Under the pieces are notes generated by a model. That model saw only the letters and a list, made by a program, of their open reading frames with translations. It searched no databases and had not been told where the DNA came from. Positions 3,858-56,448 of a DNA stretch of 64,000 bases are shown here, piece after piece (position 1 is the first letter of the stretch; each line of letters begins with the position of its first letter). The position numbers and the translations under genes are program-made. The stretch is from positions 1,746 to 65,745 of the forward strand of contig JBFLGC010000008.1 in NCBI GenBank assembly GCA_041859945.1, read 5' to 3'. The DNA comes from Tetragenococcus sp. (GTDB taxonomy: Bacteria > Bacillota > Bacilli > Lactobacillales > Enterococcaceae).

Positions 3858-6269
3858 TTAAATAAAACTGAGTGGCTCATTATCGATCGACACATAAAGC
3901 GCATGTCGTTGGTCTGTCTGACTCTCTTGTAAAATAGCTTGTAAAAAAGCCGGCAAATTGGGTTCCTTTTTATATTTAATGATCACTTGATAATAGTAAC
4001 GATTTTTTACTTTCGCCACACTTCCGGGAACCGGTCCTAGTAAAATACTCTGCGCAGATAGAACTTGTTTCAATCGTTCGGCTATTTGAAACATCTTCTT
4101 GGCTGCGACTGTTTCTTCTGGATGGCTGGCACTGATCCGTAAGGTAAAGTAATAAGGTGGGTAACCAGTCTGATGCCGTAGATACATTTCTTGTTGGTAA
4201 AAAGTTTCATAATCTTGGGTTTGGGCTAAGACAATGGCATGATGATCTGGGTTGAAAGTTTGGATCACCACTTCGCCGGCTTTTTCAGCCCGCCCCGCAC
4301 GGCCGGAAACTTGGGTCAATAATTGAAAAGTCCGTTCACTCGAGCGAAAATCTGGCAAATTGAGGGCGGTGTCGGCATTCAAGACGCCGACTAAGGTGAT
4401 ATTAGGAAAATCTAGCCCTTTAGCAATCATTTGTGTCCCCAGTAAAATATCCGCTTTTTGCTCTCCAAAGGCTGTCAAGATCCGTTCATGAGCACCTTTT
4501 TTACGCGTCGTGTCGACATCCATCCGTAAGATCCGCGCTTTTGGAAACAGAGCTTGTAATTCTGCTTCTACTTTTTGCGTACCGGTCCCGTAATAGCGGA
4601 TCTTATTGCTCCCACAATCAGGACAGCGATTCGGGATCTGTTCTTCATGACCACAATAATGACACTTCATCGATTTAGTGTCCATATGTAATGTCAGCGA
4701 AATATCACAATTGGGACAATCCAGGACATAGCCGCAATCACGACACATCACAAAGGAAGAATAGCCCCGCCGATTCAGTAGTAAGACGATCTGTTCTTTT
4801 TTGGCCAGACGATCGGCGATTTTTTCTTGAAGACCCAGCGAAAAATTGCTGGTATTATGATTGCTATATTCTTCTTTCATATCAACGACTTCGACAGTTG
4901 GTAAAGATGCTTGTGAGTTGGCCCGATAAGGTAAACGTAACAAATGATACACCTTTTTTTGCGCCCGCGCTCGTGATTCCAAAGAAGGCGTGGCGCTGCC
5001 CAAAACCACGGGACAATGATGATAACGTCCGCGCCAAAGAGCCAAGTCACGAGCATGATAACGGGGCGTTTCGTCCTGTTTATAAGACGTTTCATGCTCT
5101 TCATCGATAATGATCACACCGATGTCTTCTATCGGGGCAAAGATCGCGGATCGAGCACCGACGACGACTTGGGCTTCTTTACGCTCGATCTTGCGCCACT
5201 CGTCATACTTTTCACCTTGGGACAGGCCACTATGTAAAACGGCGACCGCCGAACCGAAACGGCCTTTGAAGCGTTCGACCATCTGTGGCGTCAAAGAAAT
5301 TTCTGGTACTAAGATGATAGCTGTTTTCCCTTTTTCTAAAAGTGCAGCGATCGTTTGCAAATAAACTTCGGTCTTGCCACTACCAGTGATGCCTTCTAGT
5401 AAGAAAACATCAGAACGTTGCTCCTTTTCAGCCGCTAAGATTTCTGAAACAGCTTTTTCTTGATCAGGATTGAGCTCTAAAGAGGTCGTTTGGGCAAACT
5501 TTCGATGTTGATACGGATCACGATAGGTTTCAACTTCTTCAAATTCCAACCAGCCTTTTTGGGCACCAGTATTCAAAATAGCCGTTGAAATACCTTGCTT
5601 TTTGTAAAAAGTCACAGGTTCAAAATCATGGTTCGTCAAGATTTCGGCTAACTCACTTTGTTTACGCGCCGATTTTATCAATGCATTTTGAATAGCCGCT
5701 AAATCACTTGTAGCGATTAAACTACGCACATAGCGCGTCGTTTTTACTTTATTTTGATTTTTCACTAGATAGCGTACATCGACGATATTTTGTTTACGTA
5801 ATTTTTTCAGCTCATTCAAAAGGCCTTTTGCCTCGGCCTCTTCCCAGTCCAATTCATTAGCGGTCCCAAAATACTTGGCTTTCGCTTCGTGGGTCGGATC
5901 TAACAAAACGATCTTTTTTTGATACTTGGCTTTCATCACAGCCGGCAGCATCGTTTGTAGGCAAGTGACCTTGAAGGCGTAGGCGGTCTCTTTCATATAA
6001 TCTGCTAGTTCCAATAATTCTTCGTTCAAGACAGGAGCCAGATCCAGCACGCCAAGGATCGGTTTAAGTGTCTGCTTGGCTTTCAATTCATTTTGCTTTT
6101 TCAAGGCTACAACAAAGCCTTGAATATGCCGATTTCCTTCGCCAAATGGCACTTCCACCCGCATCCCGATTTCGACGACTTCTTGCAAACTTTCTGGGAT
6201 TTCATAAGTAAACGGCTGATCTGTCTGCATCGTATGTACATCCACGATCACCTCTGCAAATTTTTGCAT
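3858..6269 (-). CDS. priA: primosomal protein N' (PriA helicase)
   Basis: 803 aa. Walker A GITGSGKT, DEAH-like IIDEEH and a Cys-rich zinc-binding insert (CRDCGYVLDCPNCD..CHYCGH..CPDCG). Confidence 0.9.
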   Translation of the reverse strand: MQKFAEVIVDVHTMQTDQPFTYEIPESLQEVVEIGMRVEVPFGEGNRHIQGFVVALKKQNELKAKQTLKPILGVLDLAPVLNEELLELADYMKETAYAFKVTCLQTMLPAVMKAKYQKKIVLLDPTHEAKAKYFGTANELDWEEAEAKGLLNELKKLRKQNIVDVRYLVKNQNKVKTTRYVRSLIATSDLAAIQNALIKSARKQSELAEILTNHDFEPVTFYKKQGISTAILNTGAQKGWLEFEEVETYRDPYQHRKFAQTTSLELNPDQEKAVSEILAAEKEQRSDVFLLEGITGSGKTEVYLQTIAALLEKGKTAIILVPEISLTPQMVERFKGRFGSAVAVLHSGLSQGEKYDEWRKIERKEAQVVVGARSAIFAPIEDIGVIIIDEEHETSYKQDETPRYHARDLALWRGRYHHCPVVLGSATPSLESRARAQKKVYHLLRLPYRANSQASLPTVEVVDMKEEYSNHNTSNFSLGLQEKIADRLAKKEQIVLLLNRRGYSSFVMCRDCGYVLDCPNCDISLTLHMDTKSMKCHYCGHEEQIPNRCPDCGSNKIRYYGTGTQKVEAELQALFPKARILRMDVDTTRKKGAHERILTAFGEQKADILLGTQMIAKGLDFPNITLVGVLNADTALNLPDFRSSERTFQLLTQVSGRAGRAEKAGEVVIQTFNPDHHAIVLAQTQDYETFYQQEMYLRHQTGYPPYYFTLRISASHPEETVAAKKMFQIAERLKQVLSAQSILLGPVPGSVAKVKNRYYYQVIIKYKKEPNLPAFLQAILQESQTDQRHALYVSIDNEPLSFI

Positions 6270-9634: not shown

Positions 9635-10201
9635 CTAGTTCACATCTTTTGGCAAATAAAGCTGCGGATAAATATCAGCGATGATCAATAAAGCCACGAT
9701 CGCCACAGCCCCAGTTGCAAGTCCGCTAGCCGCATTCATGACTAAGGAATACACCACAGGGCTCAACCCCCATTGGACATAATCGCCCCAAAAGACCCAG
9801 CCAGCCACAAAATGCCAAAAGTAACGGGCCGCAGCCCCTACTAATCCTGATAAGATCAGATACTTCTTTAGCCCTTTTTTATTGCCCTTTTTGACACATT
9901 CGCGAATCTTTGGTGCATAAACACCAGCAAAACCGACAAAAAAATAGGCCAATATATATTCGATCAGTACTTGTGGGATACTCAGATAATAAACATCACC
10001 TAACGGGAAATGCAACAATCCCCAGATAAGGCCTGCTAAAAGACCGGGTTTCACCCCTCTGCGTACCGCAAAAACGGTCAGTGCGATCTGTCCAAGCGAA
10101 ATCGAAAAACTCGACCCGATCTTTAAGGGAATAAACGATAATACCATGGCTAAGGCAGCAAGAACGGTTCCTTCTACCCAAACTCTTGTCTTAGAATGCA
10201 T
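9635..10201 (-). CDS. thiT: ECF transporter S component, ThiT family (thiamine or thiamine-precursor binding), copy 1
   Basis: 188 aa, 5-6 TM helices, begins MHSKTRVWVEGTVLAALAMVLSFIPL. Directly preceded by a TPP riboswitch. Confidence 0.75.
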   Translation of the reverse strand: MHSKTRVWVEGTVLAALAMVLSFIPLKIGSSFSISLGQIALTVFAVRRGVKPGLLAGLIWGLLHFPLGDVYYLSIPQVLIEYILAYFFVGFAGVYAPKIRECVKKGNKKGLKKYLILSGLVGAAARYFWHFVAGWVFWGDYVQWGLSPVVYSLVMNAASGLATGAVAIVALLIIADIYPQLYLPKDVN

Positions 10202-10204
10202 AAA

Positions 10205-10346
10205 AAACTCCTCCTTTAGATTTTTCCATTCACAAAGAAGAAGTCTTCGCTTCTACTCTTCACAATTCCTACGTTCGCATGATCGAAACAGGTACGAAGG
10301 GTTTAGAATCACTTCAATCTCAGCCATTGTAGGCTCCCCTTTGTGA
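10205..10346 (-). promoter_or_regulatory. TPP riboswitch (THI element), copy 1
   Basis: Minus-strand RNA reads cacaaaGGGGAGCC..GGCUGAGA..ACCCUUCGUACCUG..CGUAGGAAuugug. This matches the THI-box core (GGGGUGCC / CUGAGA / ACCCUU.GAACCUGAUC.GG..AUGCCAGCGUAGGGAA). Followed by the RBS AAAGGAGGAG. Confidence 0.85.
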
Positions 10347-10356
10347 ATTTTGATTT

Positions 10357-10929
10357 TTATTTATTTTTTGGTACAAACAAACTTGGTGCCACATTATAAA
10401 GCAAAACGAGGACAATGGCGATATAGATCGCATTGGCCAAGAAAGACGCTCCATTGGCTAAAAAGGAATAAAGATAAGGACTCATTTGTGGTGGCGCATA
10501 GGCTCCCCAGACAAATACTCCTGCCCAAAAATGCCAGAACCAACGGCTAAAAGCCGAAATGACCCCACCTAAAGCAATATAGCACATCGTTTTCGTTTTT
10601 TTAGCTTGAGCAATGCTAGCTTGGATCTTAGGCATCAAGATCCCACCCATACCACCAAAAGCAAAGGCAAAAGGATATTCAAAAATGATCTGTGGCACGC
10701 TGACAAAATTTTTCATGGCCGAGCCTAAGATAATATTGAGTAACCCCCAAATAAAACCTGAAAGCATCGCCGGGGCCCAACTTCTACGATAGCCATACAA
10801 AACCAGCGGCACCAGACCTAATGATAAATCGAAACTGGCATTGCCTGTTTGTAAGGGAATAAAAGATAAAGCCATCGCTAAAGCCGCGATGATCGTCCCT
10901 TCCACCCAAACAACCGTCTTTGAATGCAT
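10357..10929 (-). CDS. ECF transporter S component, ThiT family, copy 2 (paralog)
   Basis: 190 aa. Begins MHSKTVVWVEGTIIAALAMALSFIPL, clearly paralogous to copy 1 but diverged. Also preceded by its own TPP riboswitch. Confidence 0.7.
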   Translation of the reverse strand: MHSKTVVWVEGTIIAALAMALSFIPLQTGNASFDLSLGLVPLVLYGYRRSWAPAMLSGFIWGLLNIILGSAMKNFVSVPQIIFEYPFAFAFGGMGGILMPKIQASIAQAKKTKTMCYIALGGVISAFSRWFWHFWAGVFVWGAYAPPQMSPYLYSFLANGASFLANAIYIAIVLVLLYNVAPSLFVPKNK

Positions 10930-10934
10930 AAAAA

Positions 10935-11085
10935 AGCTCCTCCTTTTAGAATCTTGAAATTCACAAAGAAGAAGTGTTTGCTTCTATTCTTCACAATTCC
11001 TACGTTCGTATGACCGAAACAGGTACGAAGGGTTTAGAGTATCCTCAATCTCAGCCCAAATGGACTCCCCTTTGTGAATAGATCC
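10935..11085 (-). promoter_or_regulatory. TPP riboswitch (THI element), copy 2
   Basis: Minus-strand RNA reads cacaaaGGGGAGUCC..GGGCUGAGA..ACCCUUCGUACCUG..CGUAGGAAuugug, followed by the RBS AAAGGAGGAG. Confidence 0.85.
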
Positions 11086-12276: not shown

Positions 12277-12445
12277 TATTTTGATAATAGAATGCAAAAT
12301 TTCAATCTATTTCATAATAAATTTTAGCTTATCCATGAAATATAAAGTAAAATAAAACCCGAACATTTTCACAAAAACATTTCAAAAATTACATCTTAAC
12401 ATTGACATTCTCAAAATTATCTGATAATTTTGAATCGATAAGAAA

Positions 12446-12706
12446 ACGCGATGAAAAAGAAAGTAAACAGCTTGCGAAAATCAAAAGAGACTTCCGATCG
12501 CTGAAAAGGAAGGATTTGTCAGTTGTTGAAAATGGCTTTTGAGCGGATTTTCCGAAAATGAGTAGGAAAATACGGATGCTCCGTTAACAAGCAGCAGTGA
12601 CCGATCCAATCGTTCACTGACAAAGGTAAGATCTGTGAAGATCTTATGATGTAAGGTGGTAACGCAGTCCATGCCCTTCAGCTTTTAGCTCAAGGGCATT
12701 TTTTTA
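12446..12706 (+). promoter_or_regulatory. T-box riboswitch leader, apparent AUG (Met) specifier
   Basis: Promoter with TTGACA near 12402. Stem I opens GCGAUGAAAAAGAAAGUAAAC, close to the Bacillus glyQS leader start GCGAUGAGAAGAAGAGUA. AGAGA and GCUGA distal motifs are present. Specifier loop reads ..GAAAAUGG|CUUUUGAGCGG, with AUG at about 12532-12534 followed by a purine, next to the 3' strand of the basal helix. Stem III is AAGAUCUGUGAAGAUCUU. T-box sequence AAGGUGGUAACGC. Terminator GCCCUUCAGCUUUUAGCUCAAGGGC plus U7. Confidence 0.65.
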
Positions 12707-12731: not shown

Positions 12732-13580
12732 ATGAGTGGAAATTTAGTGGTACAAACCGATTTTGGCTTGCAAGACGGCGCCGTCAACGCCATGTACGGC
12801 GTGGCTTATCAAGTCGAGCAAAATTTAACGATCACGGATCTGACCCATGAGATCACGCCCTATGATATTCATGACGCCAGCTACCGCCTATTGCAAAGTG
12901 TGACTTATTGGCCTAAGGGGACCGTTTTCGTTTCGGTCGTCGATCCCGGTGTGGGCTCGACCAGACGTAGTGTCGTGGTCAGCCTTAAAAGTGGGCAATA
13001 TGTCATCACCCCGGACAATGGAACTTTGACCTATTTGAAATCTTATGTTGGTATCAAAGAAGTGCGTCAAATCGACGAGAACACCCAACGCTTAGCCGGT
13101 TCTGCTGAAAGTCATACTTTCCACGGTCGTGATGTCTACATGTATAACGGCGCTCGCTTGGCAAGTCAAAAAGTGCGTTTTGAAGCATTAGGATCAGTGG
13201 TCTCTGTCGACTCCATTGTCACTTTCCCGCTTTTGGAACCGAAACAAACAAATGCCGTTATGCAAGGAACGATCGATATTTTAGACATTCGCTTCGGATC
13301 ATTGTGGACAAATCTTCCTTTGTCATTCATCAAAAATTGGCACGTCGCTTATGGGGATCAGTTACAAGTGGAAATTTATTATCAAAACGTCTTACGTTAT
13401 CGTGAAAGTGTCACTTTTGGCCGCTCGTTTGCGCAGGTTGACCCACAAGAACCTGTGCTTTACATCAATTCTTTACTCAATATTGGTTTAGGTCTCAACC
13501 TTGGTTCCTTTGCCGAAACGTATAAAATCGGGACTGGGATCAATTGGAAAATAAGGATCAAAAAGGAGGATTTATCATGA
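12732..13580 (+). CDS. SAM hydroxide adenosyltransferase (DUF62, SalL/fluorinase-like fold)
   Basis: 282 aa. The N-terminus LVVQTDFGLQDGAVNAMYGV and ..VDPGVGS.. are family signatures. Confidence 0.75.
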   Translation: MSGNLVVQTDFGLQDGAVNAMYGVAYQVEQNLTITDLTHEITPYDIHDASYRLLQSVTYWPKGTVFVSVVDPGVGSTRRSVVVSLKSGQYVITPDNGTLTYLKSYVGIKEVRQIDENTQRLAGSAESHTFHGRDVYMYNGARLASQKVRFEALGSVVSVDSIVTFPLLEPKQTNAVMQGTIDILDIRFGSLWTNLPLSFIKNWHVAYGDQLQVEIYYQNVLRYRESVTFGRSFAQVDPQEPVLYINSLLNIGLGLNLGSFAETYKIGTGINWKIRIKKEDLS

Positions 13581-23217: not shown

Positions 23218-24051
23218 TTAAAGGTTGACCTGTCTTTTTCGTCGAAAGCGGATAAGCAGATACTTGATGATATTGACTACTAAAAAAAGAAAGATGAAAA
23301 CCAAAGTGATCGTTGCTCCCGGTGGTGTGTCCAGATAGAAGGAACTGGTCAACCCACTCAACATGCCGATCAGACCAAGGCCAACACTGATCAAAATGAC
23401 CGCATTGAAGCTTTTGCCTAGGCGCATACCGATCGCAGCCGGCAAAACCATGATCGCGGAAATCAGCAAGGCTCCTGCGATCGGGATCATGATCGCGATC
23501 GCGACACCGGTCAAAATGTTGAAGGCCATCGACATTTTTTGTGTCGGTAACCCATCAACAAAAGCGGTATCTTCATCAAAAGTCAGGACATACATTGGCT
23601 TTTTAAACAAGAAAAACAAAAGCGTGATCAAAGCAAAGAGAAGGCCTAAGAAAATGACTTGATTTTGTGTGATGGTAACGATCGAGCCAAATAAATAAGA
23701 TTGGATACTGACCGCCGAATTGCCACCACTACGGTTCATCAAAACCAAAGCCAAGGCAAGGCCACCTGCCATCAGGATCGCAATCGAGATCTCGGAATAC
23801 CCGCGATACATGGTCCGCAAATACTCCAGTAAAATTGCCCCTAAGACAACCACGATCAAGGTCGTAAAGGTTGGATTCAAATTCAAATAAAAACCTAAAG
23901 CGACCCCTGCTAAGGAAACATGCGACAAAGTATCTGCCATCAAAGATTGTCGTCGCAAGACCAAAAATACGCCTAGCATCGGCGCGATCCCAGCTATAAA
24001 TATGGCTGCAAGTAGAGCTCTTCTCATGAATCCATATGAAAACAACGCCAT
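23218..24051 (-). CDS. metal (Zn/Mn) ABC transporter permease, ABC-3 family (ZnuB/AdcB-like)
   Basis: 277 aa polytopic membrane protein with a perfect AGGAGG ribosome-binding site. Overlaps the upstream ATPase gene. Confidence 0.75.
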
Positions 24052-26689: not shown

Positions 26690-28675
26690 TTATCCTTTTA
26701 ATTTGACTTCGCCGATAGAATCTTGTGCTGAGACCTCGCCTGTTTTAGCGATTGTCAATTTTTCGACCTTTTCGGCATTGGTGAAGACAGTTAGGACATC
26801 CGTCTTCTTGCCAGCTTTGACGACAGCATCGAGATCCATCTCTGCTAACAAAGTAGTCGCGGTGACCTCTTCGCCTTCTTCCACATGGATCGTAAAGGGA
26901 GCGCCTTTTAATTCGACCGTATCTAAGCCCATGTGCACCAAAACTTCGGCACCACCTGGAGTCAAGATCCCCACGGCATGTTTGGTTTCAAAAATACTGG
27001 AGATTTTTCCGACTACTGGCGCATAGATCTTACTATCAGTTGGTTGTACAGCAAGCCCGTCACCCATCATTTTTTGTGAAAAGACTGGATCCGAAACGTC
27101 TTCGATCGCGATCAATTTCCCATTGACAGGTGCAAAAACTTCTTCTGTCACGCTGACTTTAGTGGTTGATTCGGTCGTTTGAGTGGCATCTTCAGTTGCT
27201 GTTGTCCCACTTACGACAAAGCCTTCCGGAGTTACCAGTTCGGGTTCGACCCGATCGTCTTTATTGAAAATATTGTACTTACGAAAGACCATAGTCAAAA
27301 TGAATGGGATTACGGCTGCGATGATCATGGCGATCAAGAAGCCTAACCAGCCAGCACCGATTTCTCCGTTGATCGATAAGATTCCCGGAAGACCACCGAC
27401 ACCGATACTATTGGCCCGCACGCCCAAAATATTATTGACCATACCAGCAAAGGCCGAACCGATCATAGCAGCGACAAAGGGATAGATATATTTAAGATTG
27501 ATCCCAAACATGGCCGGTTCAGTAACACCTAAGTAACACGAAATCGTAGCCGGGATCGACACTTGTTCTTCTTTTTCATTGCCACGGTGCAAGAAGATGA
27601 TGGCCAGTACTGCAGAACCTTGGGCAATGTTTGACAAAGCGATCATTGGCCATAAATCGGTCGTTTTATAACTTGCAATAAGTTGTAAGTCGATGGCGTT
27701 GGTCATATGATGGAGCCCGGTGATAACCAGTGGCGCGTAAAGTCCCCCAAATAGGAAACTAAACAACCAACTGATAGATGAAGACAAACCAGCATTCACG
27801 ACTTTAGCGATCAAATCACCTAACCACCAACCAACAGGACCTAAGACAACGTGAGCCGCAATGATTGTTGGCAACAAAGAAAGCAACGGTACAAAAATCA
27901 TTGAGACGGCTTCAGGAATGTGTTTCCTAAAGAATATCTCTAAATAAGCGAGTAAGAAGCCAGCCAGCATCGCCGGAATGACTTGGGCTTGGTAACCGAT
28001 CTTATCGATTTGGAAATAGCCAAAATCCCAAACTGGAATGTCAGCCGCTGCTGTCGAGGCCACATCATACGCATTTAAGAGTTGGGGCGATACCAAAGTG
28101 ATCCCCAAGACGATCCCCAACATTTGCGTCGTGCCCATTTTCCGAGTGATGCTCCAAGTGATCCCAATTGGTAAAAATTGGAAAATAGCTTCACCAGGCA
28201 GCCACAGAAAATCATTGACCCCATTCCAAAAAACTGATTTTTCGATAATTGTCGAGCCGCCAAAATCGATCCCGCCTAGAATATTCCGAAAACCTAGGAT
28301 CAACCCACCAACGATGATAGCTGGAATGATCGGTGTGAAAATCTCCGCCAACACGCCAATGACTCGTTGTAGCCAGGGTTGTTTCTTATTGGCTGCTTTT
28401 TTAGTTTCTTCTTTTGAAACCCCTTCGATTCCCGAAATCGCCGAAAATTCATTGTAAAAAGTCGCCACATCATTACCGATGATCACTTGAAACTGACCAG
28501 CGTTGGTAAACATGCCTTTGACGCTGTCGATATTGTCGATGGCGTCTTTATCCGCTTTCGATTCATCATTCAGCACGAAGCGCATCCGTGTCGCACAATG
28601 AGTAACGGCTGCAATATTTTCTTTACCACCAACATCTTTTAACAACTGCTCAGCATCTTGTTGGTACTTTCCCAT
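26690..28675 (-). CDS. PTS trehalose-specific EIIBCA (glucose-family EIIB-EIIC-EIIA fusion)
   Basis: 661 aa. EIIB active-site Cys in VTHCATRMRF, polytopic EIIC, and a C-terminal glucose-type EIIA (..VLVHMGLDTV..). Trehalose specificity is inferred from the trePP-pgmB-treR neighbourhood. Confidence 0.75.
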   Translation of the reverse strand: MGKYQQDAEQLLKDVGGKENIAAVTHCATRMRFVLNDESKADKDAIDNIDSVKGMFTNAGQFQVIIGNDVATFYNEFSAISGIEGVSKEETKKAANKKQPWLQRVIGVLAEIFTPIIPAIIVGGLILGFRNILGGIDFGGSTIIEKSVFWNGVNDFLWLPGEAIFQFLPIGITWSITRKMGTTQMLGIVLGITLVSPQLLNAYDVASTAAADIPVWDFGYFQIDKIGYQAQVIPAMLAGFLLAYLEIFFRKHIPEAVSMIFVPLLSLLPTIIAAHVVLGPVGWWLGDLIAKVVNAGLSSSISWLFSFLFGGLYAPLVITGLHHMTNAIDLQLIASYKTTDLWPMIALSNIAQGSAVLAIIFLHRGNEKEEQVSIPATISCYLGVTEPAMFGINLKYIYPFVAAMIGSAFAGMVNNILGVRANSIGVGGLPGILSINGEIGAGWLGFLIAMIIAAVIPFILTMVFRKYNIFNKDDRVEPELVTPEGFVVSGTTATEDATQTTESTTKVSVTEEVFAPVNGKLIAIEDVSDPVFSQKMMGDGLAVQPTDSKIYAPVVGKISSIFETKHAVGILTPGGAEVLVHMGLDTVELKGAPFTIHVEEGEEVTATTLLAEMDLDAVVKAGKKTDVLTVFTNAEKVEKLTIAKTGEVSAQDSIGEVKLKG

Positions 28676-28875
28676 AATGATTCCTCCTTAAAATTGTATA
28701 TACATGTACGATTACAAAAATATAATAACGTGTATGGATACAAATTGCAAGCGTTTCACACTATTTTTCAAAAAATTTTTTTTTGAAGGTTGCTCTTTCA
28801 CTGAAAAAAAGTCGAAAACAGGCTTTTTTTCTGAGGAATGTGTATTATTTTTCAATAAAAAAACAGCATTCCCAC

Positions 28876-28893
28876 TTGTAAAAGCTTTCATTT
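28876..28893. promoter_or_regulatory. candidate cre (CcpA) site in the divergent tre promoter region
   Basis: TGTAAAAGCTTTCA compared with the consensus TGWAARCGYTWNCW, one mismatch. Confidence 0.4.
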
Positions 28894-28952
28894 TCCGTTA
28901 TAATTTAATTGCCTGTATAGACAAGACAGCCATGAAAGGAGCTAAATTTCAC

Positions 28953-31574
28953 ATGACAACGATGCATTTGACCATTCAAAAAAATTGGACAGCTTTTTGG
29001 GAAGACCAAACGAGTTGCACTTACACGGGACCTTTACTTGATCGTTTAAAACATTTGATAAATGATTTAAGAGCTCATGATACCACAGCTGGAACGATCG
29101 CTCAGGAAGTTGTTTTCGAAAAAGAGGATACGACAATAGAATTGGCCCAATATTTGACAGAAACCTTAAACCGGCCTTTTGTGATAGGTAGCCCTGAAGA
29201 TTTAGCCGAAAAAACAGCTCAATTGCCTTGGGAAGTTACCTACCATGGCTATCATCCCGGTAAAGATGAATATTCGGTCGAGTCCTTACTCACAGTTGGC
29301 AATGGTTTTTTAGGTTTACGCGGAACGACGCCTGAAATGGAGATCGCCGATGCCAACTATCCAGCTCTTTATTTAGCGAGCCTTTATGACCGGGCGCCTT
29401 CACAAGTTTCCGATCGAACGATTTATAATGAAGATTTTGTCAATGCACCGAATCTACAAAAAATCTATTTAGTGGTCGATGACGAAAAAATCGACATTGC
29501 TTCTAATGAACCCACACAAATGAAACGACGCCTCGATCTCAAAACTGGGCTATTTGAAGCTTGGACATTATTTACATCAAAAAGCGGTAAAGAGATCGCC
29601 GTACATGCGCAAAAAATCGCGAATATGGTGGATACTCACCAATACAATGTCCGTTATGAATTTACACCATTGAATTTTTCAGGGGCGATCACCGTCGTCT
29701 CCGAGGCTGATGGGGCGGTCTATAATTACAATGTTGCCCGCTATCGTAGCCTCGAACAGAACCATTTGAAAGTCTTACAAACAACAGTCGATGGCCCCTT
29801 AGCTACTTTAACTGCCGAAACGATCCATTCTAAGATTCGTGTCGTACAAAAGGCCCAATTATTTAGTGACACACTTGATCTAAACACTTTAGTTACCAGT
29901 AAGGATGAGCAAAAAGTCTGGCAAAAGCTGACAGTGGCAGCTATCAAAGGGCACCCCTATGGTTTGGAAAAAAGTGTTTTTGTGCAACAAGCACGACTAG
30001 GAGAACCATTACCCGAAAATACGCCTATCTTCCAAACTTTTACGGAAAGTTACACTGATTCAAAAGAGGCTTGGGTAGAACTTTGGGAACAAGCCGCTAT
30101 CAAGGTCTCAGGAGATGTGATGTCGCAAAAATTATTGAACTTGCATACCTATCACCTCTTGTGTTCAGCTTCTCCTAACGGCAACAAGGATCTGGATGCT
30201 AGTATCACGGCGCGTGGCTTGCATGGTGAAGCCTATCGAGGACATATTTTCTGGGATGAATTATTCATCCTACCATTTTACATCTTGCATTTTCCCAAAA
30301 CGGCGCGCCAGTTGCTGCTGTATCGTTACCGCCGTTTACAGACCGCTAAAGAAGATGCGCAAAAAGCCGGCTATGAAGGGGCAATGTATCCTTGGCAATC
30401 CGGCCTTGACGGCTCTGAGCAATCGCAAGAATTACATTTGAACCCTATCAATGGTCAATGGAAAGAAGACAACAGTCGCTTGCAACGGCATGTCTCGTTG
30501 GCGATTGCTTATAACATTTGGCAGTATTGGCACAACACTCAAGATGCCGACTTTATGGAAAATTATGGTTTAGAAATGTTACTGGAGATCGCTCATTTCT
30601 GGCAAAGTACCGCCACATTTAACGAAGCGACCCAGCGTTATGATATCGATCGTGTCATGGGCCCTGATGAATTTCACGAAGCTTATCCAGGAGCCAAAAA
30701 TGGAGGGCTAAAAAACAATGCCTACACGAACATGATGGTCGTTTGGCTGTTTGAAGAAATTGCCGATTTGAGGGAACAATTTGCGCCTGAGACCTTTGCT
30801 GCTATTCAAGAAAAAACCGAAGTCACCGACGATTTGCTTGAATCCATGGAGACCATCAAACATCAATTAGCCTTAGAAATCAATGAGGATGGGATCATTG
30901 CCCAGTTTGCCGGTTATTTTGACTTAAAAGACTTAGATTGGGAGCATTACCGTAAAGAATATGGCAACATCTACCGGATGGATCGTATTTTAAATGCCGA
31001 AGGAAAGTCAGCAGATGCTTACAAGGTTTCTAAACAAGCGGATAGTTTGATGATCTTCTACAATTTTGCCAAAGAGCAAGTCGATACGATTTTAGAAGAC
31101 TTAGACTATTCTTTGCCAGAAGACTACGTGACCGGCAATTTGCATTATTATCTAAAAAGAACTTCTCACGGATCGACTTTGTCGCGAGTCGTGCATGCGC
31201 AATTGGCCGCCATGGTCGCAGATTTTGATTTGGCTTGGAAACTGTACCAAGAAGCCCTATATTCCGATTATCAAGATATCCAAGGAGGCACGACCGCTGA
31301 AGGGATCCACGCCGGTGTGATGGCAGCGACTTTGTACATTCCGCTAACGACCTTTGCTGGCCTTGATATCCGCCAACCGACGCTTCGTTTTGCGCCGAAT
31401 CTACCGGCAGCTTGGGATTCTATCCAATTTAAATTTAAAAATCGTGGCGTCGACTTTGATGTTTGTGTCGAAAAACAACGCTTGACTTTGACTGCTGATC
31501 AAGAAGTAGCTGTCACTGTCAATAATAAAGCCATTTTGCTAAAAGCAAACGAAACAAAAACGATCAACTATTAA
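28953..31574 (+). CDS. trePP: GH65 glycoside phosphorylase, probably trehalose-6-phosphate phosphorylase
   Basis: Start at MTTMHL, with an AAAGGAG RBS about 11 nt upstream; the track ORF has an 83-aa low-complexity upstream extension that is not credible. About 873 aa with the GH65 N-terminal, central (alpha/alpha)6 and C-terminal domains. Lies between a trehalose-PTS gene and pgmB, as in Lactococcus. Confidence 0.7.
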   Translation: MTTMHLTIQKNWTAFWEDQTSCTYTGPLLDRLKHLINDLRAHDTTAGTIAQEVVFEKEDTTIELAQYLTETLNRPFVIGSPEDLAEKTAQLPWEVTYHGYHPGKDEYSVESLLTVGNGFLGLRGTTPEMEIADANYPALYLASLYDRAPSQVSDRTIYNEDFVNAPNLQKIYLVVDDEKIDIASNEPTQMKRRLDLKTGLFEAWTLFTSKSGKEIAVHAQKIANMVDTHQYNVRYEFTPLNFSGAITVVSEADGAVYNYNVARYRSLEQNHLKVLQTTVDGPLATLTAETIHSKIRVVQKAQLFSDTLDLNTLVTSKDEQKVWQKLTVAAIKGHPYGLEKSVFVQQARLGEPLPENTPIFQTFTESYTDSKEAWVELWEQAAIKVSGDVMSQKLLNLHTYHLLCSASPNGNKDLDASITARGLHGEAYRGHIFWDELFILPFYILHFPKTARQLLLYRYRRLQTAKEDAQKAGYEGAMYPWQSGLDGSEQSQELHLNPINGQWKEDNSRLQRHVSLAIAYNIWQYWHNTQDADFMENYGLEMLLEIAHFWQSTATFNEATQRYDIDRVMGPDEFHEAYPGAKNGGLKNNAYTNMMVVWLFEEIADLREQFAPETFAAIQEKTEVTDDLLESMETIKHQLALEINEDGIIAQFAGYFDLKDLDWEHYRKEYGNIYRMDRILNAEGKSADAYKVSKQADSLMIFYNFAKEQVDTILEDLDYSLPEDYVTGNLHYYLKRTSHGSTLSRVVHAQLAAMVADFDLAWKLYQEALYSDYQDIQGGTTAEGIHAGVMAATLYIPLTTFAGLDIRQPTLRFAPNLPAAWDSIQFKFKNRGVDFDVCVEKQRLTLTADQEVAVTVNNKAILLKANETKTINY

Positions 31575-31589
31575 TGGAGGAATAAAGAA

Positions 31590-32411
31590 ATGAAAAAAGG
31601 ATTTGTCTTTGATTTGGATGGCGTGATCACCGATACCGCCAAATTCCATTATATTGCTTGGAAAGATCTCGCTGATTCGATCGGGATCACCATCGACCTT
31701 AAATTTAATGAACGCCTGAAAGGCATCAGCCGCATGGATTCTCTGGAGCGTATCTTGGTTTACGGTGGTAAAGATGCGGCCTATACACCTGCCGAAAAAG
31801 AAGCACTTGCGACGCAAAAAAATACTCATTATGTCGAACTGCTCCAAGCCTTGACGCCAGCCGACCTTTTGCCGGGTGTCAAAGAATTTTTGGCGGAAGC
31901 TAAAGCGTGTCAGGTGCCTTGTGTGATCGCTTCAGCCTCAAAAAATGCCCCTTTTATTTTGCAGGTTTCTGAAAGCGCGATCCGTGAAATCGTCGGCCGA
32001 CGTCCTGCACAGGACGTGTTCCGTGATAATCGTGCCGCCATTGCTGAATCGGTACGTGATATCGTTCAGGCAACATTGAACGGCTATGGCGCGGGTATCC
32101 AGATCACAGCACTTTCCATCGAAGATGCAGCGCCGCCGCGTGAAGTGACCGATGCCTTTGATGCCATCGTCGATCCAGCCAGTTTGCACAAAGGCAAACC
32201 CGATCCGGAGATTTTTATCAAAGCTGCCCAAGCAATCGGTTTAAAACCCGAAGAAGCAGTCGGTTTTGAAGATGCTCAGGCTGGAATCGATGGTATCAAA
32301 GCATGTGACATGTATGCCGTTGGGGTCATGTCAAACGAAGAACTCCATGGTGCTGATGTTGTTGTGAAAAAACTGACTGACCTGTCAGTGGCTGATTTAT
32401 TAGAAAAATAG
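31590..32411 (+). CDS. pgmB: beta-phosphoglucomutase carrying an in-frame 64-aa HflK/SPFH-like insertion
   Basis: HAD motif I FDLDGVITDT, motif II ASAS, and KGKPDPEIF. Colinear with L. lactis beta-PGM except that residues 126-189 (VSESAIREIVGRR..GAGIQITALSIEDAAPPREVTDA) replace the 8-aa segment ERMNLTGY. Total length is 273 aa against about 221 for a normal beta-PGM. Confidence 0.75.
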   Translation: MKKGFVFDLDGVITDTAKFHYIAWKDLADSIGITIDLKFNERLKGISRMDSLERILVYGGKDAAYTPAEKEALATQKNTHYVELLQALTPADLLPGVKEFLAEAKACQVPCVIASASKNAPFILQVSESAIREIVGRRPAQDVFRDNRAAIAESVRDIVQATLNGYGAGIQITALSIEDAAPPREVTDAFDAIVDPASLHKGKPDPEIFIKAAQAIGLKPEEAVGFEDAQAGIDGIKACDMYAVGVMSNEELHGADVVVKKLTDLSVADLLEK

Positions 32412-32460
32412 CACTGCTTTCTAACTGCTTATTGTTATACTAATTGTAGGAGGAAAGGAA

Positions 32461-33177
32461 ATGAATAAATTTAGGGAGATCTTCTTAGATCTGGAACAAA
32501 AAATAGTGGCCGGGGATTATCCGGCCCACAGTCTACTTCCAAGTGAAAATCAGCTGATCAAAATATACGCCGTATCAAGAGAAACCGTGCGTAAAGCTTT
32601 AAATATGCTTCAGGATGCCGGCTACATTCAAAAAAAGCAAGGTAAAGGTTCGATCGTTCTAGATTTGAATCGCTTTGATTTTCCGATCTCGGGATTGACC
32701 AGTTTCCGCGAATTACAAGAGACACAACAGATTCCTAGCCAAACCAAGGTAGTCGAGATCCATAAGATCGCTGTTTCCCCAAAATTACATGAAATCACCG
32801 ACTGGCCGGTCGCTTCTGAAAGCTGGAAATTGATCCGCCAACGTTCGATCGATGGAGAAGTCGTCATTTTAGATAAAGATTACCTAGATGCCACGATCAT
32901 TCCAGAGCTTCCCAAAGAAGAGGCCGAGCATTCGATCTACGATTATTTTGAAAAACAATTAGGACTAGACATCTCTTACGCGCAAAAAGAAATCACCGTC
33001 GAACCAGTCACCAAAGAGATGCGTGATCTCATGAATCTACGTCCCGAAGACCAACATGTCGTCATCGTCAGGAGTTTGGTCTATCTTGAAGACACGCGTT
33101 GCTTCGAATATACCGAATCGATCCACCGCCTTGATAAATTTCGTTTTGTTGATTTTGCCAGAAGACGGAAAATGTAA
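32461..33177 (+). CDS. treR: GntR/HutC-family trehalose operon repressor
   Basis: 238 aa. N-terminal GntR HTH (LPSENQLIKIYAVSRETVRKAL) plus a UTRA effector domain. Confidence 0.75.
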   Translation: MNKFREIFLDLEQKIVAGDYPAHSLLPSENQLIKIYAVSRETVRKALNMLQDAGYIQKKQGKGSIVLDLNRFDFPISGLTSFRELQETQQIPSQTKVVEIHKIAVSPKLHEITDWPVASESWKLIRQRSIDGEVVILDKDYLDATIIPELPKEEAEHSIYDYFEKQLGLDISYAQKEITVEPVTKEMRDLMNLRPEDQHVVIVRSLVYLEDTRCFEYTESIHRLDKFRFVDFARRRKM

Positions 33178-34817: not shown

Positions 34818-35344
34818 AAAAATCCCTCCTCATCTTTGCCCTATTTTACCAATTTTAGCTGCAAAAGAAAATCACCTTTATCTTGCAATCAGACAACCTA
34901 CAGTTGCACATGGCAATTAAGTCACCCACCATTCTTTCAGTTTTTTCTCAAGTTTTAGTGTGAATTTTTTAAAGGAAATTTTGTACTGAAGATCAAAGAC
35001 AAGTGGTACAAGAAGAAATGAGATGACCGGGCGAATGAACACTTACTAGGAGCCAACAACGGTTCTCGTTTTTTGATTTCGAGAGTCTTTATGGATACTA
35101 AAACGCAAATTCGATAGCCAATTCTGGATTCGTTGTCAAAGATACTTGCTTGTTAATTGTGGTACCTTTCGTTCAATAAAACTAATACGTCAGGATCTAA
35201 ACCACACTTTAAAATATATTTCCTTAATAGTTAAGAAAAAACCGTTCTTTTCCAGATCTTTTTTGCATTATGAGTCAAACGTCACTCTTATAGACAAGGC
35301 TAGTCCGATTTTCTTAACTACATCCCCAAACATTTCCTTTATTC

Positions 35345-52375: not shown

Positions 52376-53329
52376 TTATTCAACTTCACTCAAAATCGCA
52401 CGCACTTCATCGATCGACTTGGTTCCCATTAAACGCACCCGTAATTCACTGGCGCCAGGAAAGCCTTTGACATAGATTTTAAAGAAGCGATGCAAGCCCG
52501 CAATTGCGCGAGGCACCCTATCAGCATAGTGATCTTGCAGGTCCAATTGTAATTTTAGTAAATCTAATAACTCTTTGGTCGAGTGTTCTTGTGGCTCTTT
52601 TTCAAAAGCATAGGGATTTTTGAAGACACCCCGCGCGATCATGATCCCGTCGACCCCATATTCGTCGACCAAACGTAAACCTGCTGTTCTATCCGCAATA
52701 TCGCCATTTATCGTGAGCAAAGTTTGCGGGGCGATCTTATCGCGTAGCGCCATGATTTCAGGAATCACTTCATAGTGAGCCGGAACTTTACTCATTTCTT
52801 TACGTGTCCGTAAGTGCACCGTCAAATTGGCGATGTCTTGTGCTAATAAATGACTGATCCAGGGCACCATTTCGTCTTTTTTCGTGTAACCGATCCGCGT
52901 CTTGACACTGACCGGGATCCCACCTGCTTTAGCAGCGGCAATCAATTCAGTTGCTACTTCCGGTCGCTTGATCAAGCCACTACCTTTCCCATTGCCAGCC
53001 ACATTGGGAACCGGACAGCCCATATTGATATCAACGCCCGCAAAACCCATGTCGGCCATGCCGATACTCATTTGGCGGAAAAATTCCGGCTTGTCGCCCC
53101 AAATATGCGCCACAATTGGTTGTTCATCTTCGGTAAAATATAAGCGGCCAGAGACACTTTGTCGCCCGTCTGGATGACAATAACTATCCGAATTCGTAAA
53201 TTCGGTAAAGAAAACATCCGGTGCTCCGGCTGCTTGTATCACATGGCGAAAGACGACATCGGTTACGTCTTCCATCGGTGCCAGTATAAAAAAGGGCTTC
53301 GGTAAGTCTGCCCAAAAATTTTGGTTCAT
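52376..53329 (-). CDS. dus: tRNA-dihydrouridine synthase
   Basis: Start at [24 protein letters not shown] with a GGGAAGGAA ribosome-binding site. TIM-barrel flavoenzyme with the INMGCP motif. Confidence 0.85.
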
Positions 53330-53636
53330 TTGATTCCTTCCCTTCATTCCACAAAAGTTTCTGATTCATTATACTAGGAAACAAGCAAAGAAGCAAAAAC
53401 CGTGAATTTGGAGCCTGCAGTTTACGAGCTAAATTCGCTAAAATAAATCTATGGTTGTTGAAATTGGAAAGTAACAACCATAGAGGCTTTCCTCTTGTAA
53501 GCAAAATTAAAGTGATTCAAAATTCATTATTTTATCTCTCTATTCATCTAGCAAACAAGTGTTCTAAGTTGTATAATAAACTCACAAGAAGTTTTGAGGG
53601 CGGTGGCTGTCACTTTTCTCTAAGGAGATGATTTCT

Positions 53637-53672
53637 ATGAGACCATGGAAAAATCTTAAGAATGAAAAATAG
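53637..53672 (+). CDS. 11-aa micro-ORF (MRPWKNLKNEK) with a strong RBS, a possible leader peptide
   Basis: taAGGAGatgatttctATG, ending at TAG. Confidence 0.3.
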   Translation: MRPWKNLKNEK

Positions 53673-53675
53673 CAC

Positions 53676-53759
53676 GTGAGCGTATTTGAAGCTCTGTCAC
53701 TGATGATTGCCTTTGGTGCATTAGTGGCTACGATTTTGTCCAATAAAAAGGACAAATAA
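53676..53759 (+). CDS. 27-aa hydrophobic peptide (MSVFEALSLMIAFGALVATILSNKKDK), holin-like / type I toxin-like
   Basis: Starts at GTG 3 nt after the micro-ORF stop. Single predicted TM helix with a basic C-terminal tail. The promoter-like TTGTATAAT near 53570 and a terminator at 53840-53873 delimit a transcript of about 300 nt. Confidence 0.35.
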   Translation: MSVFEALSLMIAFGALVATILSNKKDK

Positions 53760-55260: not shown

Positions 55261-56448
55261 TCAGAGCTTTTTGTCCACTCTATGATACAAAATCACACCT
55301 ATGACCATCAACACAATAGCAACACTAATGGCCGCCATGCCAGCAAAAATACCAAAGTGTGCCGAAAGTAGACCGGTCACAAAGGGCATGGCGATCCCGC
55401 CCAGGCCCCCAATGATCAAAAGCCAGCCCAGTGCCAGTGGATATTTACTGATAGATGGACCTGCGATCGTTAGCGCACTCGGATAGATTCCGCCCATAAA
55501 GGCGCCCAAACCTAAGATAGCGGCAATAATGACCGGATAACTGGTTGTTGAAAGCAACAAGAGATAAAAGAAAGTCGTGCCGATCGTTAAAATCAAAAGG
55601 AGTTGGCTTCGTTTCAACCGGTCGCCATAAATTCCGCAGAGCAGACGCCCAACCAAAATCGCCAGCCATAATAAGGACGCGATCAACTGACTTTGACCAA
55701 TACTCAAAATATGGGCATCTAATAAATAGGTCACCAACCAACTACTGACAGCTGCTTCCACACACAAATAGAAAAACAAGATCATGACCGTGATCCAAAA
55801 ATAGCGATCTTTCAAAAAAAGATAACTCGCCCTTGAGTTATTTACTTCTGGCGTACTAAAATCGTCTTCTAGCGGTACTTTAGCTAATAGGACTTGGGAA
55901 CATGCGGCTAATAACAAAATGATCAAACAACTGATTTGCCAACCACTATCGCCAAAGACAATCGCTGCAGTCATCACCAAAACAGGAGCTAACAAAGCAC
56001 CAATCGCAAACAAGCCGTGTAATAAATTAAGGGCTGCCGGACTACTATCGGTCACATCATTAACAATTTGATTGTCAAAATTAGAAATACTACCACGGCT
56101 GATTCCGATCGCAAAAAAAGCGATCATTAACAGGGTCGGTTGTCCTGTAATGATGATTGTTACAAAACCTAGTAAAACAAAACTGCTCAAAAAAAGATTG
56201 GCTCGTTTTCTTCCTAGATAGATAGGTAAGATCCCAGCGATGAAGCTAGCGATCAAATTACCAGCTTGATGGACCGAAATGAGAAGGCCACTCAGCGTAT
56301 CACTTAACTGGTAGGCCGCACTCAAATAAGGGAGCAAGGAGCCAAAGACCATAGCATAAACGCCGCTGACAAAGAAAGTGAAGAAACTACTTTTGAGTAA
56401 AAATCGCTCCTGCTGATTTAAACCACTGTAAAATGACTGCTTTTCCAT
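55261..56448 (-). CDS. MFS transporter
   Basis: 395 aa with 12 predicted TM helices. GRKRANL-type motif between TM2 and TM3. Confidence 0.8.
   Translation of the reverse strand: MEKQSFYSGLNQQERFLLKSSFFTFFVSGVYAMVFGSLLPYLSAAYQLSDTLSGLLISVHQAGNLIASFIAGILPIYLGRKRANLFLSSFVLLGFVTIIITGQPTLLMIAFFAIGISRGSISNFDNQIVNDVTDSSPAALNLLHGLFAIGALLAPVLVMTAAIVFGDSGWQISCLIILLLAACSQVLLAKVPLEDDFSTPEVNNSRASYLFLKDRYFWITVMILFFYLCVEAAVSSWLVTYLLDAHILSIGQSQLIASLLWLAILVGRLLCGIYGDRLKRSQLLLILTIGTTFFYLLLLSTTSYPVIIAAILGLGAFMGGIYPSALTIAGPSISKYPLALGWLLIIGGLGGIAMPFVTGLLSAHFGIFAGMAAISVAIVLMVIGVILYHRVDKKL

What the first reader, a model, noticed from the sequence alone, without database searches (positions are those of the whole stretch)
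31965..32156. High-GC HflK/SPFH-like segment inserted in frame into beta-phosphoglucomutase (pgmB)
PgmB is colinear with L. lactis beta-PGM: FDLDGVITDT, ASASKN, KGKPDP and the C-terminal core are all present. The exception is 64 residues, VSESAIREIVGRRPAQDVFRDNRAAIAESVRDIVQATLNGYGAGIQITALSIEDAAPPREVTDA, which replace the 8-aa ERMNLTGY segment. This stretch strongly resembles the SPFH domain of proteobacterial HflK (E. coli HflK: ..SAESAIREVVGKYTMDRILTEGR..PYDMGITLLDVNFQAARPPEEVKAAFDDAI..). The 192-nt segment is about 55-57 percent GC with cgt/ccg/gcg-rich codons, whereas the flanking DNA is about 40 percent GC. The downstream junction falls in a shared FDAI microhomology (HflK AAFDDAIA versus PGM YFDAIAD). 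This pattern fits illegitimate recombination with foreign, probably gammaproteobacterial, DNA. Alternatively it could be an assembly or construct chimera. The reading frame is preserved and catalytic residues are intact, so the enzyme may still fold with a surface insertion in the core domain.
Basis: seen in the sequence. Interest (0 to 1): 0.6.

Follow-up and report, generated by a model that had tools for sequence, protein, structure and literature searches.

The report
Foreign hflK patch inside pgmB
A 180-base piece of a soil/gut alphaproteobacterium's hflK gene sits in frame inside the beta-phosphoglucomutase gene of an Enterococcus-like bacterium, but only in this one public assembly; the same clone sequenced elsewhere has the normal gene, so it is most likely a sequencing or assembly chimera, or at most a very recent accident.

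Summary
pgmB (31590-32411, 273 aa) is a normal beta-phosphoglucomutase interrupted by an HflK/SPFH fragment. Compared with insert-free conspecific loci, exactly 180 nt (31962-32141) replace 9 native nt (AAAAAATTA, coding for KKL), in frame. The donor is not gammaproteobacterial. The patch is 179/180 identical to hflK of Pseudochrobactrum asaccharolyticum-type Brucellaceae (Alphaproteobacteria). The right junction lies in a 22-nt stretch where native pgmB and donor hflK agree at 21 positions in the same frame (EV[T/A]DAFD). This is the only such match between the window and the donor locus. The left junction has no shared bases. The chimera occurs in one unannotated NCBI contig only. Five independent samples carry the native junction. 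One of them, SRR28826807, is identical to the window over 12,598 nt, and its contig starts 17 nt from the left junction. No other donor-like patch exists in the 64 kb, and AlphaFold gives the insert pLDDT below 50. I favour a non-heritable library or assembly chimera (about 0.6) over a very recent in vivo capture of foreign DNA (about 0.33). A simple k-mer graph mis-join is excluded, so only the reads can decide. It is not an evolved domain fusion.

The parts
31590..32411 (+). pgmB (beta-phosphoglucomutase) ORF, 273 aa, carrying the insert. The native conspecific allele is 651 nt (216 aa).
31962..32141 (+). Foreign 180-nt patch, an internal piece of Pseudochrobactrum asaccharolyticum-type hflK (HflK residues about Q199-R258, part of the SPFH domain). 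It replaces the native AAAAAATTA.
   Evidence: 179/180 to L090, L094, L095; 178/180 to L009; 177/180 to L008
31961..31962 (+). Left junction with 0 nt of microhomology (native ...ATTTTG|AAAAAA; donor ...GGTTCGT|CAGGTT).
32142..32163 (+). Right-junction homology block GAAGTG[A/G]CCGATGCCTTTGATG. It is 21/22 identical between native pgmB and donor hflK, in the same frame. The crossover lies within GAAGTG (32142-32147), because 32148 carries the native A.
31945..31961 (+). The 17 nt between the start of Logan contig SRR28826807_414 (same clone, native allele) and the left junction. This is a probable read-coverage seam.
28734..31574 (+). Upstream GH65 phosphorylase gene (946 aa) in the same sugar operon. 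Unaffected context.
32461..33177 (+). Downstream GntR/UTRA regulator. Its exact protein was used to retrieve the insert-free loci L001-L005.

Best explanation
The patch is a non-heritable chimera. It is a piece of Pseudochrobactrum hflK DNA from the same sample or library that was joined to Enterococcaceae pgmB DNA outside the cell and then reached the consensus of one low-coverage assembly. Shown: the donor identity, the exact borders, the homology at the right junction, the absence of the insert from the same clone elsewhere, and a contig end at the site in an independent assembly. Inferred: an incompletely extended pgmB strand primed on hflK at the 21/22 homology during amplification, giving an hflK-to-pgmB chimeric fragment. 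At this AT-rich, homopolymer-rich spot the native reads leave a seam, with only about 17 nt of overlap. The short native tip was therefore lost, the longer chimeric tip was kept, and the left contig end was joined to it (or one fragment carried both junctions). The preserved reading frame is then a one-in-three coincidence, because the right junction is automatically in frame. The resulting 273-aa protein is not a product of this organism.
For: (1) The chimera exists once among about 15 billion proteins, on one unannotated NCBI contig, and neither junction occurs in JGI metagenome contigs. (2) Five independent samples have the native junction (L001, L002/L101, L003, L004, L099). (3) SRR28826807 contigs are identical to the window over 9,136 + 3,462 nt with 0 mismatches, whereas other strains differ by about 1%, and they carry the native KKL allele. 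(4) That contig begins 17 nt from the left junction. The chance of this is about 0.4-1% at the observed contig sizes, so it points to a coverage seam exactly there. (5) The patch is 179/180 identical to an extant species, shows no amelioration, and is not linked to any mobile element. (6) The left junction is blunt (0 nt), as expected for a fragment or contig end and unlike known in vivo illegitimate joints. (7) The patch plus the homology block spans about 200 nt, which is on the scale of a read or fragment. (8) Brucellaceae hflK turns up as stray contamination in other Firmicute assemblies (P0121/L006 in Jeotgalicoccus, P0124 labelled Bacillus subtilis). (9) Inter-genome chimeras are the commonest misassembly class in metagenome benchmarks (PMC9661791). 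(10) AlphaFold gives the insert pLDDT 28-48.
Against: The longest exact strings shared at the junctions are 6 and 15 nt, so no de Bruijn assembler could create the join in silico. A physical chimeric molecule or a mismatch-tolerant gap-closing step is needed. A fragment with two junctions whose pgmB break points lie only 9 nt apart is itself a very rare in vitro product. That geometry is more natural for repair of a chromosome inside a cell. There are no Ns at the site. I could not show that Pseudochrobactrum is present in the source sample, nor that the NCBI assembly and SRR28826807 share reads. The 12.6 kb of identity only bounds the divergence; it does not exclude a very recent real mutation.
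Confidence: 0.6

Rival explanations
1. This is a genuine, very recent in vivo event. A break or replication gap in pgmB at the A/T tract was repaired by capturing a fragment of Pseudochrobactrum DNA. The fragment's right end annealed at the 21/22-nt homology, the G/T mismatch was corrected to the recipient base, and the left end was joined without homology, with loss of 9 nt. This would resemble microhomology-anchored illegitimate recombination (SPDIR or HFIR-like) or alternative end joining.
For: Both pgmB break points lie 9 nt apart, as expected when the two ends of one chromosome are rejoined. The right junction sits at the single best homology between the two sequences (0.0025 expected). 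The join cannot be produced in silico from k-mers. The frame is preserved and the catalytic residues are intact. The contig is otherwise clean, with 0 mismatches to Logan contigs and no other foreign patch. About 67 such 21/22 sites are expected between two whole genomes, so anchor sites do exist.
Against: The same clone lacks the insert, and it is seen nowhere else. The patch is 180 nt, above the 3 to about 100 bp reported for SPDIR. SPDIR also needs microhomology at both ends and occurs at below 1e-12 in wild-type A. baylyi. HFIR uses much longer anchors and 3-10 bp microhomology at the illegitimate joint. From general knowledge, not tested here: Enterococcaceae are not known to be naturally transformable. 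The donor piece is an internal fragment of a housekeeping gene with no mobile element. The insert is predicted to be disordered.
Confidence: 0.33
2. This is an established, evolved domain insertion: a beta-PGM lineage that carries an SPFH-like subdomain with a function.
For: The frame is preserved, and the insertion point is a surface helix-to-strand connection distal to the active site.
Against: All 119 other listed relatives are 216-219 aa, and the conspecific alleles have KKL at this position. The insert is 99.4% identical in DNA to an extant alphaproteobacterial gene and has foreign codon usage. It covers only positions 92-158 of 261 of the HflK model, which is not a folding unit. Its pLDDT is below 50.
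Confidence: 0.01
3. This is a purely computational mis-join of two genomes in a de Bruijn graph through a shared k-mer.
For: The right junction lies in a near-identical 22-mer. Inter-genome translocations are common in MEGAHIT-type assemblies.
Against: The exact shared strings are only 6 and 15 nt at the right junction and 0 nt at the left. All 18 donor sequences examined have G where pgmB has A, and no A-variant donor was found in JGI metagenomes.
Confidence: 0.03

Closest known systems
Inter-genome chimeric contigs and chimeric library fragments in (meta)genome assemblies
   Same: Sequence from two unrelated genomes sits in one contig. The junction lies at a short chance homology. The site has low coverage. 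The feature is private to one assembly.
   Different: The usual chimeras switch genome once and stay switched. Here a patch of only 180 nt is flanked on both sides by the same gene with a 9-nt loss, and the shared strings are too short for a k-mer graph join.
[quoted passage not shown] 2016, as described in bioRxiv 10.1101/2023.11.22.568220)
   Same: A heterologous DNA segment replaces a few recipient bases, anchored at an extended microhomology with a mismatch (21/22). Foreign DNA from any source can serve as the template.
   Different: Reported patches are 3 to about 100 bp, whereas this one is 180. SPDIR has microhomologies at both crossovers, whereas the left joint here has none. It was demonstrated in naturally competent Acinetobacter baylyi, mostly in recJ/exoX/recA mutants.
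[quoted passage not shown] 2002; cited in PMC6382021)
   Same: There is one homologous anchor on one side and an illegitimate joint on the other, and foreign DNA is integrated.
   Different: From my own recollection of the primary HFIR papers, not checked here: the anchors are at least about 150 bp, not 22 nt. The illegitimate joints use 3-10 bp of microhomology. The process requires natural transformation.
Beta-phosphoglucomutase (TIGR01990; L. lactis PgmB, PDB 1lvh)
   Same: The flanking 216 residues are a complete, colinear beta-PGM with all catalytic motifs, located in a GH65 phosphorylase-pgmB-GntR regulator operon.
   Different: It carries 57 extra residues in the connection after the motif II helix, which none of the other 119 listed relatives has.

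Membership tests
Beta-phosphoglucomutase (TIGR01990 bPGM) | Whole-protein score above the curated cutoff | tested here: met
   246 bits against a cutoff of 189.4, but in two stretches (3-125 and about 186-269); PDB beta-PGMs at E 2e-57
Beta-phosphoglucomutase (TIGR01990 bPGM) | HAD catalytic motifs (DxD nucleophile, Ser/Thr motif II, Lys motif III, ED motif IV) | tested here: met
   D8, D10, S115, K118, N119, K203, E227 and D228 are invariant columns of alignment A4
Beta-phosphoglucomutase (TIGR01990 bPGM) | Contiguous core domain of about 216-221 aa, as in all relatives | tested here: not met
   273 aa; the other 119 listed relatives are 216-219 aa; the insert has pLDDT below 50
Beta-phosphoglucomutase (TIGR01990 bPGM) | Enzymatic activity (beta-G1P to G6P) | not testable with these tools
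   Needs an enzyme assay
HflK / SPFH (TIGR01933, PF01145) | Full-length HflK: N-terminal membrane anchor, complete SPFH domain and coiled coil, scoring above the 159.4-bit cutoff | tested here: not met
   56 bits, covering only profile positions 92-158 of 261. It is a fragment of the donor's 380-aa HflK.
HflK / SPFH (TIGR01933, PF01145) | Sequence derived from an hflK gene | tested here: met
   179/180 nt identical to hflK of P. asaccharolyticum-type genomes
SPDIR microindel | Microhomology (simple or extended) at both crossover sites | tested here: not met
   Right: 21/22 extended microhomology. Left: 0 nt.
SPDIR microindel | Patch size of 3 to about 100 bp | tested here: not met
   180 nt inserted and 9 nt removed; size range
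HFIR | A long homologous anchor on one side, plus a 3-10 bp microhomology joint on the other | tested here: not met
   The anchor is only 22 nt and the other joint has 0 nt; criteria and from general knowledge of the primary papers
De Bruijn graph inter-genome misassembly | An exact shared string of at least k-1 (20 nt or more) at each switch point | tested here: not met
   Exact shared strings are 6 and 15 nt on the right and 0 nt on the left
Library or assembly chimera in general | Junctions supported only by single or duplicate fragments, while native-allele reads are present in the same data | not testable with these tools
Indirect support: the native allele in the same clone and a contig end 17 nt from the junction.

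The most novel reading that the evidence does not exclude
This is a real, nucleotide-resolved, cross-phylum micro-transfer. An Enterococcaceae cell captured 180 nt of an alphaproteobacterial housekeeping gene into a chromosomal gene, using a single 21/22-nt chance homology on one side and a homology-free joint on the other. That would be an SPDIR or alternative-end-joining-like event caught in nature with both parents known, in a lineage not known to be transformable.
Probability: 0.3. Interest if true: 0.6.

Novelty: not a real feature. Interest (0 to 1): 0.25.

Why it matters
If it is an artefact, it is a useful warning. A public contig that looks clean elsewhere (0 mismatches over 12.6 kb to an independent assembly) can still hold a read-sized foreign patch. 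That patch yields a plausible-looking 'domain fusion' protein, which is already present in protein databases as a singleton with HAD and Band_7 domains. If it is real, it would be a rare natural example of microhomology-anchored capture of a short foreign DNA fragment across phyla. It would come with exact donor, recipient and pre-insertion alleles, and would bear on how far free environmental DNA contributes microindels to bacterial genomes. In either case it says nothing new about beta-PGM or HflK function.

Tried and rejected
- **Gammaproteobacterial or E. coli origin:** no blastn match in 5,426 E. coli genomes, and the donor was found in Brucellaceae instead.
- **Exact look-up of the chimeric protein's contig:** not indexed.
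- **Exact look-ups of the upstream GH65 and PTS proteins**, to obtain the left-hand contig of SRR28826807: not on record.
- **Protein search with the 80-aa junction peptide:** it returned only two fragments, and the named-genome scan was needed to find the donor.
- **JGI metagenome scans** for the left chimeric junction and for the right junction or an A-variant donor: 0 hits.
- **Search for other foreign patches:** a GC scan found four mild peaks (5111-5290, 23331-23510, 52891-53070, 55331-55510), but none is donor-like in codon usage.
- **Presence of the donor in SRR28826807:** it is not among the 10 of 24 contigs shown for the exact HflK protein, which is inconclusive.
- **First listing of cluster members:** I used wrong minus-strand coordinates and repeated it correctly.
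- **Evolved fusion and paralogue gene conversion:** both rejected because of the 99.4% DNA identity to Pseudochrobactrum.

Full report
**1. Observation**

The + strand ORF 31590-32411 encodes 273 aa. It scores as beta-phosphoglucomutase (TIGR01990, 246 bits against a cutoff of 189.4). It aligns to solved beta-PGMs (3nas, 4gib, 1lvh) in two blocks, residues 3-125 and 186-269.

The residues in between match HflK (TIGR01933, E 4e-15, profile positions 92-158 of 261) and Pfam Band_7/SPFH (E 7e-11).

GC is 0.561 in the insert, 0.456 in the rest of pgmB and 0.416 in the window.

**2. Exact anatomy**

The exact protein of the downstream GntR-type regulator retrieved five public contigs of the same species. 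Their pgmB is 216 aa.

A DNA alignment shows about 99% identity on both sides. The single difference is that the native AAAAAATTA (coding for KKL) is replaced by 180 nt at window 31962-32141, a net gain of 57 codons in frame. The residues EVTDAFDAIV after the patch are native pgmB.

**3. Donor**

A scan of one genome per species found the peptide at 99% identity in Pseudochrobactrum asaccharolyticum DSM 25619 and a 'Rhizobiales bacterium' isolate. Identity falls off through other Pseudochrobactrum, Falsochrobactrum and Brucella/Ochrobactrum.

At the DNA level the patch is 177-178/180 identical to those two genomes. It is 179/180 identical to three further contigs that encode the same HflK protein (L090, L094, L095). 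The differences are at synonymous third positions.

The donor is thus an alphaproteobacterium of the Brucellaceae, not a gammaproteobacterium. E. coli genomes give no match. The patch corresponds to an internal piece (about Q199-R258) of a 380-aa HflK.

**4. Junctions**

- **Right junction.** Native pgmB reads GAAGTGACCGATGCCTTTGATG and donor hflK reads GAAGTGGCCGATGCCTTTGATG. They agree at 21 of 22 positions, in the same reading frame (EVTDAFD against EVADAFD). The window has the native A at 32148, so the switch lies within GAAGTG (32142-32147).
- **Uniqueness of that homology.** It is the only match of at least 21/22 between the insert-masked window and the 5.2-kb donor locus. The expected number is 0.0025, so the junction was guided by homology. 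About 67 such sites are expected between two whole genomes, so the existence of an anchor somewhere is not surprising.
- **Left junction.** There is no shared base: native ...ATTTTG|AAAAAA and donor ...GGTTCGT|CAGGTT.
- **Consequence.** The longest exact shared strings are 6 and 15 nt. All 18 donor sequences examined carry G at the mismatch, and no A variant was found in JGI metagenomes. A pure de Bruijn graph mis-join is therefore excluded. A physical chimeric molecule, or a mismatch-tolerant gap-closing step, is required.

**5. Distribution**

- The chimeric protein is a singleton (P0001). It has one member, on one unannotated NCBI contig of 67,409 bp.
- The other 119 listed relatives are 216-219 aa.
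- The native junction is present in five independent samples: L001, L002/L101, L003, L004 and L099.
- Two Logan contigs of run SRR28826807 are identical to the window over 9,136 and 3,462 nt with no mismatch, while other strains differ by about 1%. This run carries the native KKL allele.
- Its contig starts at window position 31945, 17 nt before the left junction. At the contig sizes of that run, the chance of an end so close is roughly 0.4-1%. This suggests a read-coverage seam at this A/T- and homopolymer-rich spot (CAAAAAATGCCCCTTTTATTTTGAAAAAATTAG).
- Neither the left chimeric junction nor the right one occurs in JGI metagenome contigs.

**6. Rest of the window**

A sliding 60-codon log-likelihood (Pseudochrobactrum against host codon usage) puts the insert alone at the top (LLR +10.4, z 4.1). 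The next independent region has z 2.5. The window contains no N.

The host is an unnamed member of the Enterococcaceae. Its RNase Y clusters at 90% or more with Candidatus Tetragenococcus pullicola.

**7. Structure**

AlphaFold2 with 30 homologues models the HAD core with block-mean pLDDT mostly 83-95. Residues 128-194 fall below 50, with block means of 28-48. The insert has no alignment depth, so this is weak evidence. Still, nothing supports an autonomously folded subdomain, and the piece covers only about a quarter of the HflK model.

**8. Interpretation**

These points are settled:
- The patch is Pseudochrobactrum hflK DNA.
- It is private to one assembly.
- It is either extremely recent or not biological.
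- It is not an evolved fusion.

Two explanations remain.

*(a) A non-heritable chimera.* Evidence in favour:
- The chimera is unique to one assembly.
- The same clone has the native allele.
- An independent assembly has a contig end at the site.
- The left joint is blunt, like a fragment or contig end.
- The patch is about the size of a read.
- Brucellaceae hflK appears as stray contamination in other Firmicute assemblies.
- Inter-genome chimeras are the commonest misassembly class in metagenome benchmarks (PMC9661791).

A plausible route has three steps. First, a PCR template switch at the 21/22 homology gives an hflK-to-pgmB fragment. Second, the short native tip is lost at a coverage seam and the longer chimeric tip is kept. 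Third, the chimeric tip is joined to the left contig end.

*(b) A genuine in vivo capture of foreign DNA at a break or replication gap.* This is favoured by the 9-nt spacing of the two pgmB break points and by the fact that the join cannot be made in silico.

It fits the known mechanisms poorly:
- SPDIR gives patches of 3 to about 100 bp, has microhomology at both ends, and occurs at below 1e-12 in wild-type A. baylyi (bioRxiv 10.1101/2023.11.22.568220).
- HFIR uses 3-10 bp joints (PMC6382021) and, from general knowledge, long anchors.
- Enterococcaceae are not known to be transformable (general knowledge).

I put (a) at about 0.6 and (b) at about 0.33. Only the reads or a PCR on the source material can decide.

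**9. Verdict**

Most likely this is not a real feature of the organism, and interest is low to moderate.

Noticed in passing
window 26690-33177: The operon context is PTS EIIBCA (- strand), a GH65 phosphorylase of 946 aa, pgmB and a GntR/UTRA regulator. This is a trehalose/maltose-type phosphorylase pathway. The GH65 ORF can be extended 10 codons upstream of the called start.
   Followed up: partly
window 10249-10350 and 10980-11081 (- strand): Two TPP riboswitches about 630 nt apart, each upstream of a roughly 190-aa ORF (9635-10201 and 10357-10929).
   Followed up: no
window 12442-12681 (+): A T-box leader (101.9 bits) upstream of the ORF at 12732-13580.
   Followed up: no
window 53562-53746 (+): A full-length match to Listeria sRNA rli28 (RF01492; 61.6 bits against a gathering score of 45) in an Enterococcaceae genome.
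   Followed up: no
L006 (GCA_023089665.1, JAJHTZ010000834.1, 243 bp) and P0124: Brucellaceae hflK sequences are filed under Firmicute names. One is a 243-bp contig in a Jeotgalicoccus huakuii assembly. The other is an HflK about 100% identical (as listed) to the Pseudochrobactrum protein but labelled Bacillus subtilis. Both are likely contamination of those assemblies.
   Followed up: partly
window 35088-35133 against L001 8675-8712: A small intergenic indel or overlap separates two alignment blocks between the window and the conspecific strain of SRR19849518. Beyond it, divergence rises from about 1.2% to about 2.2%.
   Followed up: no
window 32000: The insert has A at a third-codon position where all donor sequences seen have C or T. 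It is either a private donor allele or a read error, and it could serve as a marker for the true donor population in the source reads.
   Followed up: partly
window 5111-5290, 23331-23510, 52891-53070, 55331-55510: Four other 180-nt stretches have GC of at least 0.54. None is donor-like in codon usage. Their content was not examined.
   Followed up: partly
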